From NCBI GenBank assembly GCA_049701195.1, contig JBNATU010000005.1:9015-73014 (forward strand): a stretch of 64,000 nt of DNA, read 5' to 3'. Of the stretch, positions 4,356 through 64,000 are shown in pieces. The first letter of the stretch is position 1. The number at the start of each line of letters is the position of its first letter. A model generated the notes under the pieces. That model was given only the letters and a program-made list of their open reading frames with translations, was not told where the DNA came from and ran no database searches. The stretch comes from Moorellaceae bacterium. Its GTDB lineage: Bacteria > Bacillota > DSM-521 > Neomoorellales > Neomoorellaceae. Both the position numbers and the translations under genes were made by a program.

Positions 4356-6452
4356 CTATGCAGGAATTAAGCGGGAAAAATCGGCCACCTTTAACACCAA
4401 ATCGGTTATTTCCTGTAAGAGAGCCAACCGATTGCGCCGCACTTCCGGCTCAGGAGCCATCACTAAAACCCGATCAAAGAAAGTATCGATAGGCTCTCGT
4501 AAGGCTACCATTTGGTTCAGGGCTCTTAAATAATCCCCTCTGCTCAAGCAAGGGCGTGTCGCCTCCTTCACGGTAGTCAGAGCCCGGTATAATTCTTGTT
4601 CTGCCTCCTCTTTAAGCTGCCCGGGTTCGACAAAAACCGCGCCTCCTTCTTTAGCCTGTCGGGCCAGATTAAAGGCCCTGGTAAAGGCGGTATGCAAGGC
4701 GGCAAACTCGCCCTGTCGGCGGAACGCCTCCAAATCCCGGGCTCGCTGATAGGCATCAGCCAAATCGTCCCAACCCACGGCCAGCACGGCATCCGCTACA
4801 TCATACCGTATCCCCTTTTCGCCCAAAAGATGCTCCAGCCGGGCCCGGAAAAAGCCCAGGAGATCCTCCTTCACTTGCGTCAAGGTTCTGGGCAGCCTTA
4901 TATGGCTGTCTTCATAGATCTGGTAGGCGGTGGTGATGGCTTCCTCCAGGGAAAATTTCAGGTTAAGCTCTACGGCCATAGCCACTACTCCTTGAGCATG
5001 CCGGCGAAGGCCAAAAGGATCTTGGGAGCCGGTGGGAATGAGCCCGCTGGCAAAGCATCCCACCAAGGTATCCGTGCGGTCGGCTAAACCCACCGCCATC
5101 CCGGTCAAAGAGTCGGGTAAGCGATCGCCCCCAAAGCGCGGCCAGTAATGCTGCCTGATACCGCGGCACACCTCTTCTTGTTCGCCATCCAGCGCAGCAT
5201 AATGCGCCCCCATAATCCCCTGGAGTTCGGGAAACTCATATACCATGCTGGTAACCAGATCGGCCTTGGCCAGCTCAGCCGTCCTTTCCACCAACGGCCA
5301 GAGTTTCTCCGGCAAATCCAGGGTCCGGGCGAAGTAAAGGGATAGTTTTTTTAAGCGTATCACTTTGGCCATCATGGTACCCAAGTTTTCCTGGAAAAGA
5401 ATGTGCTCCAGCTTGGGAACTTTACTGGCCAGGGGGGCCTTGCGATCCTCTTGATAAAAGAAGGTCGCATCTGCCAGACGAGCCTTGAGTACCTTCTCAT
5501 ATCCCCGGCGTATATTATCCAGGTGATCTTCCGTCCCATTGTGTACCGCTATAAAGAGAGGCAACAACCTTTCTCCCTGAGGGGCCCAAACGGGAAAGTA
5601 ACGCTGGTGTTCGCGCATGGGCGTAGTAACTACTTCACGGGGGAGTTGTAAATATTTTTCTTCTATGCGACCGCAAACGGCCGCGGGATACTCTACCAGA
5701 AAGGTTATTTCTTCCAATAGTTCAGGGTCCTCCTGTACTATACCGCCCTCTTCCCGGGCCAGGTTGACTACTTTTTCCCAGACCATCTGCCGCCGCCGGC
5801 GATGATCGGCAATTACGTAGTTCTGCTCCAGTACGCGGAAATAATCCCGGGGAAGATCTACCCGATGAGGTCCAGGAGCCAGAAAGCGATGCCCGTAGGT
5901 AAAGCGATCCGCCTTCAGCCCGGCTAGCTCTAGAGGTACTACCTCCGGACCAAAGAGGGCCAATAACCAGCGGATAGGGCGGATAAAACGGATTTCCAAA
6001 TCGCCCCAGCGCATAGGACGAGGGAAGGTCAGTTCTTCTACTACTCGTTTTAAAATAGCCGGCAGGGCGCTCAGCGTTGGACGGCCCGCTTCCCGCTTAA
6101 CGGCAAAGACATAAGCGCCTGCCGGGAGCTGGCGTACCTCCAGCTCGTCCACCTTTACCCCCTGATTTTCGGCGAAACCCAGAGCAGCCCGGGTAGGCTT
6201 ACCCTCGGCATCAAAAGCCGCCTTGGCCGGGGGACCTTTGATTTCTCGGACTAGTTCCTGCTGTACTTCGGCCAGCCCGGTTATATAAAGGGCCAGACGG
6301 CGGGGCGTGGCAAAGGCGGTCAGGCTGTGGTAAGAGAGACGCTCTTCGTGCAATAGTCTGGCGGTCAACTCTTCCATCTGTTCCAGAGTGGAAGGTAGTA
6401 TGCGGGCCGGCATTTCTTCTGTCCCTATTTCGAAGAGAAGATCGCGTACCAA
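4356..6452 (-). CDS. glyS: Glycine--tRNA ligase beta subunit
   Basis: 698-aa ORF with a typical GlyS N-terminus (LLFEIGTEEMPA), directly downstream of glyQ. Confidence 0.95.
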   Translation of the reverse strand: MVRDLLFEIGTEEMPARILPSTLEQMEELTARLLHEERLSYHSLTAFATPRRLALYITGLAEVQQELVREIKGPPAKAAFDAEGKPTRAALGFAENQGVKVDELEVRQLPAGAYVFAVKREAGRPTLSALPAILKRVVEELTFPRPMRWGDLEIRFIRPIRWLLALFGPEVVPLELAGLKADRFTYGHRFLAPGPHRVDLPRDYFRVLEQNYVIADHRRRRQMVWEKVVNLAREEGGIVQEDPELLEEITFLVEYPAAVCGRIEEKYLQLPREVVTTPMREHQRYFPVWAPQGERLLPLFIAVHNGTEDHLDNIRRGYEKVLKARLADATFFYQEDRKAPLASKVPKLEHILFQENLGTMMAKVIRLKKLSLYFARTLDLPEKLWPLVERTAELAKADLVTSMVYEFPELQGIMGAHYAALDGEQEEVCRGIRQHYWPRFGGDRLPDSLTGMAVGLADRTDTLVGCFASGLIPTGSQDPFGLRRHAQGVVAMAVELNLKFSLEEAITTAYQIYEDSHIRLPRTLTQVKEDLLGFFRARLEHLLGEKGIRYDVADAVLAVGWDDLADAYQRARDLEAFRRQGEFAALHTAFTRAFNLARQAKEGGAVFVEPGQLKEEAEQELYRALTTVKEATRPCLSRGDYLRALNQMVALREPIDTFFDRVLVMAPEPEVRRNRLALLQEITDLVLKVADFSRLIPA

Positions 6453-26225: not shown

Positions 26226-26494
26226 CTGGTGTATCCCCACTTTTTGCAGGGGAGGCCTGCTTGGACTTGAAAGCGAGCGAACAAGCCTTCGCGGTAGTCA
26301 AACTTAATGAAGCCGAAAGCGAAGGCGGACCCGAGGCTTTTGAGAGGCCTGAGGCCGGCAACTGAGACAGGATATTTAAATTCTGCCGGGAAGTCCGCCT
26401 TAAGCTCTAAAGCTGAATGATAGTTTGGCCCGCGAGGGAAACTTTCGCGAGCGAAAGCCAAGCAGACCTAGGAGCAAAACTGGGGATACGTCAG
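26226..26494 (+). mobile_element. MITE-like element, family A, copy 1 (269 bp)
   Basis: The ends are CTGGTGTATCCCCAC... and ...CTGGGGATACGTCAG, within ~45-bp imperfect TIRs. It is flanked by a perfect 9-bp direct repeat AATTCCGCC (26217-26225 and 26495-26503). There is no credible ORF inside. Confidence 0.75.
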
Positions 26495-53044: not shown

Positions 53045-53315
53045 CTGGCGTATCCCCAGTTTTCGCTCGCAAGGCCTGCTTGGACTTGAGAGGCGAACGA
53101 CTAAACCCGAGCGGTAGCCAAACTCAAGCGTGGCGAAAGGCGAAGGCAGGCCCGAGGCTTTTGAGAGGCCCGAGGCCGGCAACCGAGACAGGATGTCGAG
53201 TTTGCCGGGAAGCCTGCCGGAGCCTTGAGCCAAGCAAAAGTCCTGCCCGCGAGGGTTTTTGGAGCGAGCTTTAAGCCCAAGCAGGCCTATAAGAACAAAA
53301 CCGGGGATGCGCCAG
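53045..53315 (+). mobile_element. MITE-like element, family A, copy 4 (271 bp)
   Basis: The ends are CTGGCGTATCCCCAGTTTT... and ...AAAACCGGGGATGCGCCAG, within ~45-bp TIRs. The 9-bp flanks are AGTCGGACC and ATTCGGACC (8/9). Confidence 0.8.
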
Positions 53316-53482: not shown

Positions 53483-53556
53483 CTAACCGGTCATGCCTGG
53501 GGGCACAACTACTTATGAAAATAGCGCCGATAATAGCGCCGAGGGCTATTTTCGTG
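53483..53556 (-). repeat. Copy B of the ~65-nt hairpin-containing repeat (inverted relative to copy A)
   Basis: The reverse complement reads CACGAAAATAGC..GCTATTTTCATAAGTAGTTGTGCCCCCAGGCATGACCGGTTAG and aligns with 17472-17534. Confidence 0.6.
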
Positions 53557-54210
53557 TTAATCCAAAGGAGTAAGCAAAGCGCTATCGCAGCGGGTATATA
53601 GCTCCGTGCGCCGGATAGAAATAATACTTATCCCCGGTGCCAGGGCCCTCACCACCTCCTCCGGCCGCACGGTGAGCTGAGAGCTACAGGCCAGAAGCAT
53701 GGTAAGGAGGCGGTCGCCTTCCAGCTCTAACCGGTACAAGCCCGGCCGGAGGTCCACCTCGCGCTCTCCTCGCTTGGTCTGACGTCGCACCCACACCTCG
53801 TTCTTCCCCAGCAGATTGCGGATAGCCCGTTCCAATTCCTCCCGGGCCATTCCTTCTACCTCTACGCAGTAAGCGGCGCACCGGATAGCTTCCGTCAAGG
53901 CCGGAGCTCCTTGCGGCAGCGGTTTAACCGCCAGTATTTCCAAGCCCGGCGGCATCTCCCGAGCCAGAGAGTGCAGCACCTCTGCGGGAGGACGGGGCTC
54001 TCTTAATTCCAGATCCAGGTATTCCGCCTCGCTTTCCCTGCCTACGGCCAGAGCGGGACCAAAAGAAAAACGCGGATGGGGGTTAAAGCCCTGGCTGAGT
54101 GCTAGGGGCAACCCGGCCCGCCGGGCGGCCCGGTGAAAGCTGCGCATCACTTCCAGCTGGCTTAAGAATCGGCCGGTCCCCCGCTTGGCAAATTTAATCC
54201 GCAGCCGCAA
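53557..54210 (-). CDS. Radical-SAM-associated protein (DUF2344/TIGR03936-like)
   Basis: 217 aa. It overlaps the upstream radical SAM gene by 17 nt, and the pairing is typical of this two-gene module. Confidence 0.8.
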   Translation of the reverse strand: MRLRIKFAKRGTGRFLSQLEVMRSFHRAARRAGLPLALSQGFNPHPRFSFGPALAVGRESEAEYLDLELREPRPPAEVLHSLAREMPPGLEILAVKPLPQGAPALTEAIRCAAYCVEVEGMAREELERAIRNLLGKNEVWVRRQTKRGEREVDLRPGLYRLELEGDRLLTMLLACSSQLTVRPEEVVRALAPGISIISIRRTELYTRCDSALLTPLD

Positions 54211-56074: not shown

Positions 56075-56172
56075 AGAGTCCTTCCTTTTTTTGCTTTGGT
56101 TTTTGGGGTTTTGTTTTTTACTTCAGTGTTTTGCTGGGTTTCTTTGCCGGGTTCTTTACTTGCCTTATTGTT

Positions 56173-56352
56173 CCAGGTTATCCCCGGCTCTTCTCCCGAA
56201 ATTTACGAGTTTGAAGCTACTTTCCCGTATCGTCCTAAGATTTCTGTCGTCCTAGATTGCCGTTCCCGGCTTTAAAGCCCGGAACGGCCGCGAAGGCCGG
56301 CTCGCTTTCAGGTCCCGACAAACCTGCCGGGCAAAAAGCGGGGATAACGCGG
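56173..56352. mobile_element. Possible short, degenerate family-A-related element (180 bp)
   Basis: Facing ends CCAGGTTATCCCCGG and GCGGGGATAACGCGG. The interior has a 12-bp hairpin at 56259-56288. The flanks match only 5/9. Confidence 0.3.
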
Positions 56353-61744: not shown

Positions 61745-62539
61745 TTAAGTCAGGCCAAAGAGCTTTTTCAGCTTGGCCACCAGGCCTTCGTTCCCTTCCA
61801 GGTTGAGCAAGGGCACTTCCTCCCCCAGGAGGCGCCGGGAAATATTGTGGTAGGCCTGTCCCGCCCGGGAACGCTTATCCAGAATGGCCGGTTCGCCTTT
61901 ATTGGTGGAAACGACGATCATTTCATCCTCCGGCACCACACCCAGAAGCTCAATAGCCAGTATCTCCAGCATATCCTCAATGTCCATCATGTCTCCCCGG
62001 CGTACCATGTCGGGCCGCACCCGATTAATGATAAGCCGGGGTGCTTCCATCTCCGCCGCCTCCAACAGCCCTATGATGCGGTCGGCATCGCGCACGGCGG
62101 CCACTTCCGGTGTGGTAACCACCAGGGCCTTTTCCGCCCCGGCGATGGCATTCTTAAAGCCCATCTCAATCCCCGCAGGACAGTCGATAAGTACAAAATC
62201 GAAATCTTCTTTGAGCTGGTCGCAAAGATCCATCATTTGGTGGCGGGTTACTGCCGTCTTGTCCCGCGTCTGGTTGGCCGGCAGGAGATACAAATTTTCC
62301 ATCCGCTTGTCCTTGATCAGAGCTTGCTTCAGGCGGCACCTTCCTTCTACCACATCCACCAGGTCGTAGACGATACGGTTTTCCAGTCCCAGCACCACGT
62401 CCAGATTCCGCAGGCCTATGTCCGTATCTACCATTACTACCTTCTTGCCCAGCAGGGCCAAACCGGTCCCCAAATTGGCCGTAGTCGTCGTTTTACCTAC
62501 GCCACCTTTGCCGGAGGTAATAACTATTACTTCACCCAT
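61745..62539 (-). CDS. minD: Septum site-determining ATPase MinD
   Basis: Deviant Walker A SGKGGVGKTT. I prefer ATG 62539, 7 nt after GAGGAGG. The ORF-track maximum is 62560. Confidence 0.95.
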   Translation of the reverse strand: MGEVIVITSGKGGVGKTTTTANLGTGLALLGKKVVMVDTDIGLRNLDVVLGLENRIVYDLVDVVEGRCRLKQALIKDKRMENLYLLPANQTRDKTAVTRHQMMDLCDQLKEDFDFVLIDCPAGIEMGFKNAIAGAEKALVVTTPEVAAVRDADRIIGLLEAAEMEAPRLIINRVRPDMVRRGDMMDIEDMLEILAIELLGVVPEDEMIVVSTNKGEPAILDKRSRAGQAYHNISRRLLGEEVPLLNLEGNEGLVAKLKKLFGLT

Positions 62540-62972
62540 CTTGTTCCTCCTCTTTGGCAAAATTACCTGGATTTAAGTAGCGCCTCTCGCCGCCAGGTTG
62601 ATACCTTTCAATTATTACCGTTCCCTCCTGCACTCTGGCAATCTCGGGTTGCTTGAGCGGCTTGTCTCCCCCATCAGGAGGCCGGGCAATATAGCCGGCT
62701 ATGCGCAACTGAGTGGGTTGCAGGTCGAAGGCAATAACTACCGCACCTTCATCACCTTCCGCTCCCGCATGCACTATCCCCTTCAAGGCCCCCATAACGA
62801 TTACATGCCCACCGGCCACCACTTCACCTCCCGGGTTAACATCTCCCATTATCACTACGTTGCCGTGATAATCTATACGTTGACCTGAACGAACCGTACG
62901 CCGCACCAGCAAAGTCTGTCCGGAAGGGCGGGAAGAATGGCCCAGGCGAATTGTTTCCTGAAGAGACACCAT
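62532..62972 (-). CDS. minC: Septum site-determining protein MinC (short form, C-terminal beta-helix domain only)
   Basis: The MinC_C pattern (RSGQRIDYHGNVVIMGDVNPGGEVVAGGHVIVMGALKG) begins about 30 aa from the start. Total length is only ~146-151 aa. Confidence 0.75.
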   Translation of the reverse strand: MVSLQETIRLGHSSRPSGQTLLVRRTVRSGQRIDYHGNVVIMGDVNPGGEVVAGGHVIVMGALKGIVHAGAEGDEGAVVIAFDLQPTQLRIAGYIARPPDGGDKPLKQPEIARVQEGTVIIERYQPGGERRYLNPGNFAKEEEQDG

Positions 62973-63007
62973 ACTCTCCTCCGTCAAGTATGGATGATGT
63001 TTTCTTC

Positions 63008-63036
63008 TTTTCTACGCCTCCTCAGGTAAATCCTGC
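63008..63036 (-). promoter_or_regulatory. Sigma-H-like promoter candidate upstream of minC
   Basis: The minus strand reads GCAGGATTT-acctgaggaggc-GTAGAAAA, with one mismatch in the GAAT core. Confidence 0.35.
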
Positions 63037-63129
63037 CGCCGAAAGGAAAATGACCGGGGCTTTTTTCCTCTCCCTTCTTGCAAAATACGACAAACTCTTC
63101 CCTTACCCGCTGCACTATAGAAGTTCACT

Positions 63130-63397
63130 CTGGCGCATCCCCAGTTTTACCTCTAGGCCTGCTTGGGCTTAAAGCTCGCTCCAAAAACCCTCGCGGGCCA
63201 AACTAGCGCTTGGCTCAAGGCTCCGGCAGGCTTCCCGGCAGGATTTAAGCATCCTGCCTCAATTGCCGGCCTCGGCCATCCATGGCCTCGGGCCTGCCTT
63301 CGCCTTTCGCCACGCTTGAGTTTGGCTACCGCTCGTGTTTAGTCGCTCGCTTCTAAGCCTAAGCAGGCCTCCCCAGCAAAAACTGGGGATAACTCAG
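63130..63397 (-). mobile_element. MITE-like element, family A, copy 5 (268 bp, inverted relative to copies 1 and 4)
   Basis: The ends are CTGGCGCATCCCCAGTTTT... and ...AAAACTGGGGATAACTCAG. It is flanked by a perfect direct repeat AAGTTCACT (63121-63129 and 63398-63406). Confidence 0.8.
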
Positions 63398-63401
63398 AAG
63401 T

Positions 63402-64000
63402 TCACTCCGTTGCGCTTCCCCCTGCGCCGGTCGGGGAAAGTTGGCCGGTCAATCCGAAATACCGGGCAAAGACGTCCCGCGCCACCACTCCGGCGGAATC
63501 GCCACCATGGCTGGCATACTCGATCACCCCGGCAAAGGCGATCTGGGGATCATCATAAGGCGCAAAGGCGACAAAAATACCGTAAAAATCGCGGCTCTTG
63601 TCATCCCCCACCAGTCCCGTCTGGGCCGTTCCCGTCTTGGCCGCCACTTTTATATTCGGCGGAAAATCGCGAAAAAGGAAGGAGGCGGTTCCTTGGGAGG
63701 ATTGGGTTACGGCCAGCATGCCTTTCCGCACCTCTTCCAAAATAGAGGCCGGAACATTTACTTTTTGCACTATTTCCGGAGAATATTCCTGTTTTACCTG
63801 ACCTTCCGGAGACAGCACCCTTTTTACCAGATAAGGGCGGTAGCGGGTCCCGCCGTTAGCCAGGGTGGCTACGTAATTCGCCAGCTGAAGGACGGTATAA
63901 TTGTTGGCTCCCTGTCCGATAGAGGTATTGTAAGTATCGTATGGATGCCAGGTAGTTTCAAAATTAAAGTTGATCTCATATTGAGCCTTCAATTGGCGCA
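63402..64000 (-). CDS. mrdA: Penicillin-binding protein 2 (MrdA-like transpeptidase), C-terminal part; the gene runs off the window
   Basis: Transpeptidase-domain motifs (SIGQG, KTGTAQ) with a stop at 63402. The reading frame is open to the window edge. Confidence 0.85.
   Translation of the reverse strand, partial: RQLKAQYEINFNFETTWHPYDTYNTSIGQGANNYTVLQLANYVATLANGGTRYRPYLVKRVLSPEGQVKQEYSPEIVQKVNVPASILEEVRKGMLAVTQSSQGTASFLFRDFPPNIKVAAKTGTAQTGLVGDDKSRDFYGIFVAFAPYDDPQIAFAGVIEYASHGGDSAGVVARDVFARYFGLTGQLSPTGAGGSATE

What the first reader, a model, noticed from the sequence alone, without database searches (positions are those of the whole stretch)
63121..63406. Inverted family-A copy 5 inserted at the stop codon of the PBP2 gene, with a perfect TSD
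The element at 63130-63397 is flanked by AAGTTCACT at 63121-63129 and 63398-63406. Identity extends to AGAAGTTCACTC if the ambiguous boundary bases are included. The right-hand duplicate contains the TGA stop of the PBP2 gene (63402-63404). The insertion therefore occurred within a few bases of the stop codon and separates mrdA from the minCDE promoter region. Its orientation is opposite to copies 1 and 4, so orientation is not constrained by the direction of local transcription.
Basis: seen in the sequence. Interest (0 to 1): 0.6.

Follow-up and report, generated by a model that had tools for sequence, protein, structure and literature searches.

The report
Miniature transposon inserted after PBP2 stop
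A 268-bp non-coding miniature transposon landed four bases after the stop codon of the cell-wall gene PBP2, and a sister strain still shows the untouched site, so this is an ordinary, recent insertion by a family that normally homes to a fixed spot beside promoter -35 boxes.

Summary
Window 63130-63397 is a 268-bp MITE with termini CTGGCGCATCCCCAGTTTT / AAAACTGGGGATAACTCAG. It is flanked by a perfect 9-bp duplication, AAGTTCACT, and the PBP2 TGA stop (63404-63402, minus strand) lies in the right-hand copy.

A Logan contig from run SRR6986903 comes from a sister strain with about 98% nucleotide identity. It carries the empty site: one AGTGAACTT, no element, and a PBP2-minC spacer of 152 nt, which equals 429 minus 277. 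More distant Moorellaceae relatives also lack the insert, and their PBP2 ends at the same Glu-stop.

The genome assembly holds about 43 full copies, 24 of them with perfect 9-bp duplications. The termini match a 1120-bp IS4-family insertion sequence found in a related genus.

The family inserts so that the duplication is followed by 3 nt and then (C)TTGAC. TTG is present in 35 of 37 sites, and 23 of 35 also have a -10 box. This copy belongs to the minority class: TTGCGC, inside the PBP2 coding end on the opposite strand, with no -10 box.

Orientation is unconstrained.

The parts
63121..63129 (.). Left copy of the 9-bp target-site duplication, AAGTTCACT
   Evidence: The sister strain has only one copy.
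63130..63397 (+). 268-bp MITE (non-autonomous IS4-family derivative). It is a near-perfect long palindrome with no coding capacity.
   Evidence: About 43 full copies in the genome at 70-96% identity. No Rfam match. Folds as RNA at -156 kcal/mol, z = -10. Absent from the sister strain.
63130..63148 (+). Left terminal inverted repeat, CTGGCGCATCCCCAGTTTT
   Evidence: Family consensus is CTGRCGYATCCCCASTTTT. It is identical to the right end, and differs at one base from the left end, of the 1120-bp IS in G007.
63379..63397 (-). Right terminal inverted repeat (AAAACTGGGGATAACTCAG on the + strand), the 'AGTT' end variant
63398..63406 (.). Right copy of the duplication, AAGTTCACT. It contains the PBP2 stop codon.
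63402..63404 (-). TGA stop codon of PBP2, orthologous to the stop in relatives
63410..63415 (+). TTGCGC, 3 nt beyond the duplication. This is a weak version of the family's (C)TTGAC target motif. It lies antisense inside the last PBP2 codons and has no -10 box.
63402..64000 (-). 3' part of the PBP2 (mrdA-like) gene. The ORF runs off the window; the gene called in the sister strain encodes 692 aa.
   Evidence: Pfam Transpeptidase, 9.8e-28. Homologues are named penicillin-binding protein 2.
62532..62972 (-). minC (146 aa, C-terminal domain only). It is followed by minD, minE and rodA.
   Evidence: Pfam MinC_C, 1.1e-34. Gene order is shown.
63008..63100 (-). Conserved non-coding block between the insertion point and minC (GTCGTATTTT...AAAAAAGC.CCGG...GCAGGATTTACCT...GTAGAAAAG)
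   Evidence: Matched at 77-83% in eight further genomes of the family, belonging to two other genera; alignment.

Best explanation
The element is one copy of a non-autonomous miniature transposon (MITE). It was mobilised in trans by the DDE transposase of a 1.1-kb IS4-family insertion sequence that shares its 19-bp ends. The transposase makes cuts staggered by 9 bp in the target, and repair duplicates the 9-mer. In the lineage of this strain, the element inserted into AAGTTCACT, which overlaps the PBP2 stop codon. PBP2 keeps its original stop, and the 268-bp palindrome now sits 4 nt downstream, inside the co-directional radC-mreBCD-PBP2-minCDE-rodA cluster. The site was chosen because TTG lies 3 nt beyond the duplication, in the family's target register (9-mer, N2, C, TTGAC). 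Here that motif is a fortuitous partial match in coding DNA, not a promoter. The insertion is probably neutral or mildly polar: it leaves both reading frames and the conserved pre-minC block intact. Shown here: the element anatomy, the duplication, the empty site, the family, the partner IS and the target register. Inferred: the identity of the mobilising enzyme, direct read-out of TTG, and the lack of phenotype.
For: - Termini and the 9/9 duplication.
- 43 full copies, 24 with perfect 9-bp duplications.
- Empty site in a sister strain of about 98% identity, with the exact 277-nt length difference.
- Absence of the insert from two 87%-identical PBP2 loci and from five genus-level relatives.
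- Partner IS at G007:C4:17613-18732, with matching ends, a 9-bp duplication (CCTGCCGGC) and a transposase scoring 162.9 bits on NF033591 (IS4 family, cut-off 152). The Y-x2-R-x3-E-x6-K motif is visible in YGHRMDIEEKFKDFK.
- Target register: TTGAC starts exactly 3 nt past the duplication in 20 of 39 sites, against about 0.08 expected. TTG is present in 35 of 37 sites, and C precedes it in 25 of 35.
- The register was replicated in 18 copies from two other genomes.
- Both IS insertions seen follow the same rule.
- A second copy (53045-53315) is also absent from the sister strain. Its empty site reads GGTCCGACT-gtc-TTGACA-N17-TGCTACACT.
Against: - No transposase gene of this IS is in the assembly of the window's genome. 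Only its last 32 nt are present, at the start of contig C2, plus a remnant on C39.
- The G007 transposase is split into 67-aa and 267-aa frames, so no demonstrably intact enzyme was seen.
- The base next to the duplication differs between the strains (window 63120 is G, against T).
- In principle the sister strain could have lost the element by precise excision.
- No expression data could be obtained.
Confidence: 0.93

Rival explanations
1. The element is ancestral at this site, and the sister strain lost it by host-mediated precise excision (slippage between the 9-bp direct repeats, stimulated by the long palindrome).
For: The 9-bp direct repeats flanking a 268-bp near-perfect palindrome are the substrate known for Tn10/Tn5 precise excision (established knowledge). 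Only one empty-site strain was found.
Against: All outgroups lack it: two 87%-identical loci and genera G012, G007, G010, G008 and G004. The duplication is perfect, and the copy is 96-97% identical to two other copies, which fits a young insertion. A second copy 10 kb away is also absent from the sister strain.
Confidence: 0.04
2. The copy has been co-opted as a regulatory RNA element. Transcribed with PBP2, its 130-bp hairpin acts as an RNase III site, a 3' stabiliser for the PBP2 message, or a roadblock that uncouples minCDE-rodA from the upstream mre promoter.
For: It lies inside a co-directional gene cluster. The predicted hairpin is very stable, at -156 kcal/mol with z = -10. The hairpin is maintained across copies: 60 pairs, 96.8% of cells paired, and 10 pairs with changes on both sides.
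Against: No intrinsic-terminator or promoter pattern was found in or beside it, and there is no Rfam family. The sister strain does without it. The hairpin is a property of every copy wherever it sits, so it says nothing about this locus. No RNA data are available.
Confidence: 0.15
3. The flanking identity is part of a local duplication or an assembly artefact unrelated to transposition.
For: None beyond the 12-nt identity itself.
Against: Identity stops at 12 nt. The ends coincide to the base with the termini of about 43 other copies that have unrelated flanks and their own 9-bp duplications. The empty site was observed.
Confidence: 0.01

Closest known systems
IS10/Tn10 and IS50/Tn5 (IS4 family) and their non-autonomous derivatives
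   Same: The transposase is a DDE enzyme with the YREK signature. The ends begin 5'-CTG, and ...ATCCCC... resembles the IS10 outside end as I recall it. The target duplication is 9 bp. Precise excision between the duplications is possible.
   Different: The partner IS is only 1120 bp, with a transposase of about 330 aa. The target preference is a one-sided (C)TTGAC lying 3 nt outside the duplication, not a symmetric consensus inside it such as IS10's NGCTNAGCN (from memory). Subgroup membership was not tested because ISfinder was not available.
Bacterial MITEs that share only their ends with an IS (for example Correia, RUP, Nezha and Chunjie; general knowledge, review PMC3184786)
   Same: It is a short non-coding element of about 265 bp with terminal inverted repeats and a fixed-length duplication. 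It is present in many copies, folds into a long hairpin, lies mostly between genes, and differs in presence between strains.
   Different: The sequence family is not found in the searched literature. Insertion is registered to the base relative to -35-like hexamers.
REP/BIME-targeting or site-specific IS elements (IS1397, ISKpn1, ISPpu9/10; IS200/IS605 penta-nucleotide targets such as TTGAT for ISDra2)
   Same: Target choice is dictated by a short sequence next to, not within, the joined site.
   Different: Those elements are either IS3/IS110-type elements aimed at palindromes, or HUH single-strand transposons without inverted ends or duplications. This one is a classical DDE element with a 9-bp duplication.

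Membership tests
Bacterial MITE (non-autonomous DDE transposon) | Terminal inverted repeats | tested here: met
   Positions 63137-63148 and 63379-63390 are 12/12 complementary within 19-nt ends. The ends are conserved in all copies.
Bacterial MITE (non-autonomous DDE transposon) | Target-site duplication of fixed length at each copy, with unrelated sequence between copies | tested here: met
   9/9 at this copy; 24 of 43 copies perfect and most others 7-8/9; 18 of 18 copies in two other genomes at 8-9/9.
Bacterial MITE (non-autonomous DDE transposon) | Small, multi-copy and without a transposase gene | tested here: met
   The element is 268 bp. There are about 43 full copies and about 90 further ends or fragments. 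Only short chance ORFs are present.
Bacterial MITE (non-autonomous DDE transposon) | Ends shared with an autonomous IS that makes the same duplication length | tested here: met
   The IS at G007:C4:17613-18732 has ends CTGGCGAATCCCCAGTTTT and AAAACTGGGGATGCGCCAG and a 9-bp duplication.
Bacterial MITE (non-autonomous DDE transposon) | Presence/absence polymorphism with an intact empty site | tested here: met
   The sister strain is empty at this site and at the 53045-53315 site.
Bacterial MITE (non-autonomous DDE transposon) | Mobilisation by the partner transposase | not testable with these tools
   This needs a transposition assay.
IS4 family (partner IS) | Transposase matches a curated IS4 model above its cut-off | tested here: met
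   NF033591 scores 162.9 bits against a cut-off of 152. Pfam DDE_Tnp_1 gives 2.2e-9.
IS4 family (partner IS) | Y-(2)-R-(3)-E-(6)-K signature around the catalytic E | tested here: met
   YGHRMDIEEKFKDFK was read in the 267-aa frame. That this signature defines the family is from memory (De Palmenaer et al. 2008).
IS4 family (partner IS) | Intact single transposase frame | tested here: not met
   The only complete copy seen is split into 67-aa and 267-aa frames that overlap at L047 613-635. The other copies are cut by contig ends.
IS10 subgroup of IS4 | Phylogenetic placement with the IS10 transposase | not tested
   No ISfinder library was available. The PDB sequence search gave no transposase match.
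Intrinsic terminator | GC-rich hairpin followed by a U-run | tested here: not met
   No terminator-like sites were found in 62400-63700 on either strand.
Any Rfam RNA family | Covariance-model match | tested here: not met
   The only hit was a chance one, at E = 0.14 and far below the gathering score.

The most novel reading that the evidence does not exclude
The IS4-family transposase behind this MITE reads the -35 hexamer sequence (C)TTGAC directly and on one side only. It places its 9-bp staggered cut exactly 3 nt upstream, so the family colonises the -39 to -47 region of sigma-A promoters. The PBP2-stop copy (TTGCGC, no -10 box, antisense in coding DNA) would then be an off-promoter event, showing that DNA sequence rather than a bound RNA polymerase is what is recognised.
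Probability: 0.45. Interest if true: 0.7.

Novelty: new member of a known kind. Interest (0 to 1): 0.42.

Why it matters
For this locus the result is mainly tidy confirmation: a textbook insertion with its empty site in hand. It has two wider uses.

First, the filled and empty strains form a natural pair. They allow a direct test of whether a 268-nt perfect hairpin inside the mre-PBP2-min-rodA cluster changes expression of the division-site genes.

Second, this copy helps to dissect the family's unusual target rule. 23 of 35 sites are real -35/-10 promoters, but this copy and 11 others keep the TTG without any -10 box. That favours sequence read-out by the transposase over tethering to RNA polymerase.

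A DDE element that lands at a fixed register upstream of promoters was not found in the literature I searched. It could become a tool for placing cargo beside promoters.

Tried and rejected
- Exact-match scans of the metagenome collection for the predicted empty junction, and for the PBP2-side flank, found nothing.
- Look-ups of the window's MinD and L21 proteins by identity found no contigs.
There was therefore no RNA-seq test of read-through, no read-level search for empty-site variants, and no check for the IS in the raw reads.
- The apparent 1401-bp pair of ends on contig C35 was a false pairing, not an IS.
- The two PF01609-positive ORFs in this genome (C43, C20) have no family termini nearby, so they are not the partner.
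- A tblastn and blastn search of the G007 IS against this genome found only the 32-nt end on C2 and a remnant on C39.
- The PDB sequence search with the transposase gave no relevant hit.
- The literature searches returned no description of this family or of a -35-registered IS.
- No mirror-image half-site exists on the other side of the duplication.
- Neither element orientation nor end type correlates with the motif side.
- I looked for an outward promoter created at the junction towards minC and found only poor -35 matches by eye, in agreement.

Full report
**Observation**

The stretch reads ...CACTATAG AAGTTCACT | CTGGCGCATCCCCAGTTTT ... AAAACTGGGGATAACTCAG | AAGTTCACT CCGTTGCGC.... The repeat finder returns AGAAGTTCACTC at 63119-63130 and 63396-63407. 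It also returns nested inverted repeats covering almost the whole 268 bp.

An alignment of 48 copies from the same genome puts every element start at CTG and every end at CAG. The duplication is therefore the 9-mer AAGTTCACT. The extra AG and C are coincidences between the flanks and the element's own end bases.

The minus-strand ORF 63402-63998 carries the C-terminal part of a Transpeptidase domain. MinC_C, MinD, MinE and RodA follow on the same strand. The full PBP2 frame ends ...GGSATE* with the TGA at 63404-63402.

**The family**

The genome holding the window has 2.89 Mb in 64 contigs. It contains 97 BLAST segments of the element and 187 end-like sites, 43 of them paired at 240-302 bp. 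Of those 43 pairs, 24 have a perfect 9-bp duplication. Most others have 7-8/9 or a boundary shifted by one base. Several copies sit at contig ends, so the repeat breaks the assembly.

The element has no Rfam match. As RNA it would fold into one long hairpin of -156 kcal/mol, z = -10. That hairpin is kept across 33 copies: 96.8% of cells are paired, and 10 pairs change on both sides.

The family is abundant in at least three other genera of the same family. It also occurs in other families of the order and phylum. One carrier is 'Moorellaceae bacterium AZ2', described in a 2026 preprint as Thermobium azorense. That preprint does not mention repeats. The closest named PBP2 is from Thermanaeromonas toyohensis, at 79%.

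**The partner IS**

In relative G007, two ends lie 1120 bp apart. The interval G007:C4:17613-18732 has ends CTGGCGAATCCCCAGTTTT and AAAACTGGGGATGCGCCAG and a 9-bp duplication, CCTGCCGGC. It carries a transposase that scores 162.9 bits on NCBIfam NF033591 (IS4 family, cut-off 152) and contains YGHRMDIEEKFKDFK, the YREK signature. Its frame is split into 67 and 267 aa.

The MITE shares only about 19 terminal nucleotides with this IS.

The window's genome assembly has no such gene. However, contig C2 begins with the last 32 nt of the IS at 100% identity, followed by ACCTACTAA-ctc-TTGACA. The smallest contig kept is 2.7 kb. A collapsed 1.1-kb IS contig could therefore have been dropped; this is an inference. 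Elsewhere the transposase is seen only as fragments at contig ends in G012 and G002.

**The empty site**

No same-genus genome is held, so I searched with the full PBP2 protein. The best hit (99% identity) lies on Logan contig SRR6986903_2151. There PBP2 ends at locus position 5079 and MinC starts at 5232, a spacer of 152 nt. In the window the spacer is 63401-62973, or 429 nt. The difference of 277 equals 268 + 9.

The contig reads GCAACGGAGTGAACTTATATAGTGCAGCGGG. The single difference (window 63120 is G, against T) sits in a stretch with several other substitutions.

The two strains are 98.4% and 97.6% identical on either side of the site.

Two loci with 87%-identical PBP2 and five genus-level relatives also lack any insert. 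All of them end PBP2 at the same Glu-stop. The insertion is therefore derived and left PBP2 unchanged.

Extending the sister-strain contig shows that the copy at 53045-53315 is absent there too. Its empty site reads GGTCCGACT-gtc-TTGACA-N17-TGCTACACT, just upstream of rplU. The family has therefore moved within species-level divergence.

**The target rule and where this copy stands**

I reconstructed 39 empty sites from this genome. TTGAC starts exactly 3 nt beyond the duplication, on one side, in 20 of them and is shifted by one base in 2 more. About 0.08 such sites are expected by chance.

In the 35 sites with at least 3/5 matches:
- T13, T14 and G15 are present in essentially all.
- C12 is present in 25 of 35, A16 in 21 of 35 and C17 in 27 of 35.
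- There is no mirror half-site on the other side.

Of these 35 sites, 23 also have a -10-like hexamer at a spacing of 16-18. The same is true of only 7.8% of all genomic TTGAC, and of about 25% of TTGAC whose insertion point is ORF-free.

The rule holds in 18 copies fetched from G012 and G007 and for both IS insertions seen. It is not independent support, but I re-tested it here.

The present copy has AAGTTCACT-ccg-TTGCGC and no -10 box, antisense inside the last PBP2 codons. It keeps only the TTG core. It is one of 12 non-promoter sites, and all 12 still carry TTG. That favours direct sequence read-out over tethering to polymerase, but selection against intragenic insertions can explain part of the promoter excess.

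**Orientation**

This copy is inverted relative to the copies at 26226-26494 and 53045-53315, while the local genes are all on the minus strand. Relative to the target motif, all three have the same orientation. Genome-wide, however, the split is 19:14, and the two end variants are proximal to the motif 7:7. Orientation is free.

**Consequences at the locus**

Pattern scans find no promoter or terminator in 62400-63700. The element sits about 30 nt upstream of a non-coding block conserved across genera. That block is a candidate internal regulatory region for minCDE-rodA.

**Verdict**

The observation and the interpretation are both correct. The object is an ordinary, young MITE insertion. Its family appears undescribed and has a noteworthy register-specific target preference that this scan had already flagged.

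Noticed in passing
window 53045-53315 (and L061 17850-17910): The MITE copy upstream of rplU is also absent from the sister strain. The empty site reads GGTCCGACT-gtc-TTGACA-N17-TGCTACACT, so an unoccupied promoter shows the target register directly.
   Followed up: yes
window 63008-63100, minus strand: A conserved non-coding block lies upstream of minC in many Moorellaceae genera (GTCGTATTTT, AAAAAAGC.CCGG..TTTT, GCAGGATTTACCT-N-GTAGAAAAG). AGGATTT followed 15 nt later by GAAA resembles a sigma-H-type promoter as I recall the consensus.
   Followed up: partly
G000 contig C2:1-32 and C39:18464-18500 (outside the window): Contig C2 begins with the last 32 nt of the partner IS at 100% identity to G007, followed by ACCTACTAA-ctc-TTGACA. 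The genome probably holds at least one full IS that the assembly lost.
   Followed up: partly
L031 (NZ_CP061968.1, 'Klebsiella pneumoniae plasmid unnamed3') 2960-3220: An unannotated 27-kb 'plasmid' contains a family member (81% identity). The flanks on its two sides are reverse complements of each other, and GC skew flips at the element. This looks like a palindromic long-read artefact of a contaminant, not Klebsiella DNA.
   Followed up: partly
window 56087-56268 versus L061 15077-15166: This is a strain-variable stretch, 181 nt here against 91 nt in the sister strain. Both versions contain remnants of family ends (CCGGGGATAACCTGG here; AAAACTGGGGGATACGC there).
   Followed up: no
window 53489-53558: An indel of about 64 nt separates the two strains between the DUF2344 gene and the rplU-proximal MITE site.
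   Followed up: no
window 62532-62972: MinC is only about 146 aa, consisting of the C-terminal beta-helix domain alone. The same is true in the sister strain and in the 87% relatives (145-154 aa).
   Followed up: no
window 63120: The base directly beside the left duplication is G here and T in the empty-site strain. This G is what extends the apparent repeat to 12 nt.
   Followed up: yes
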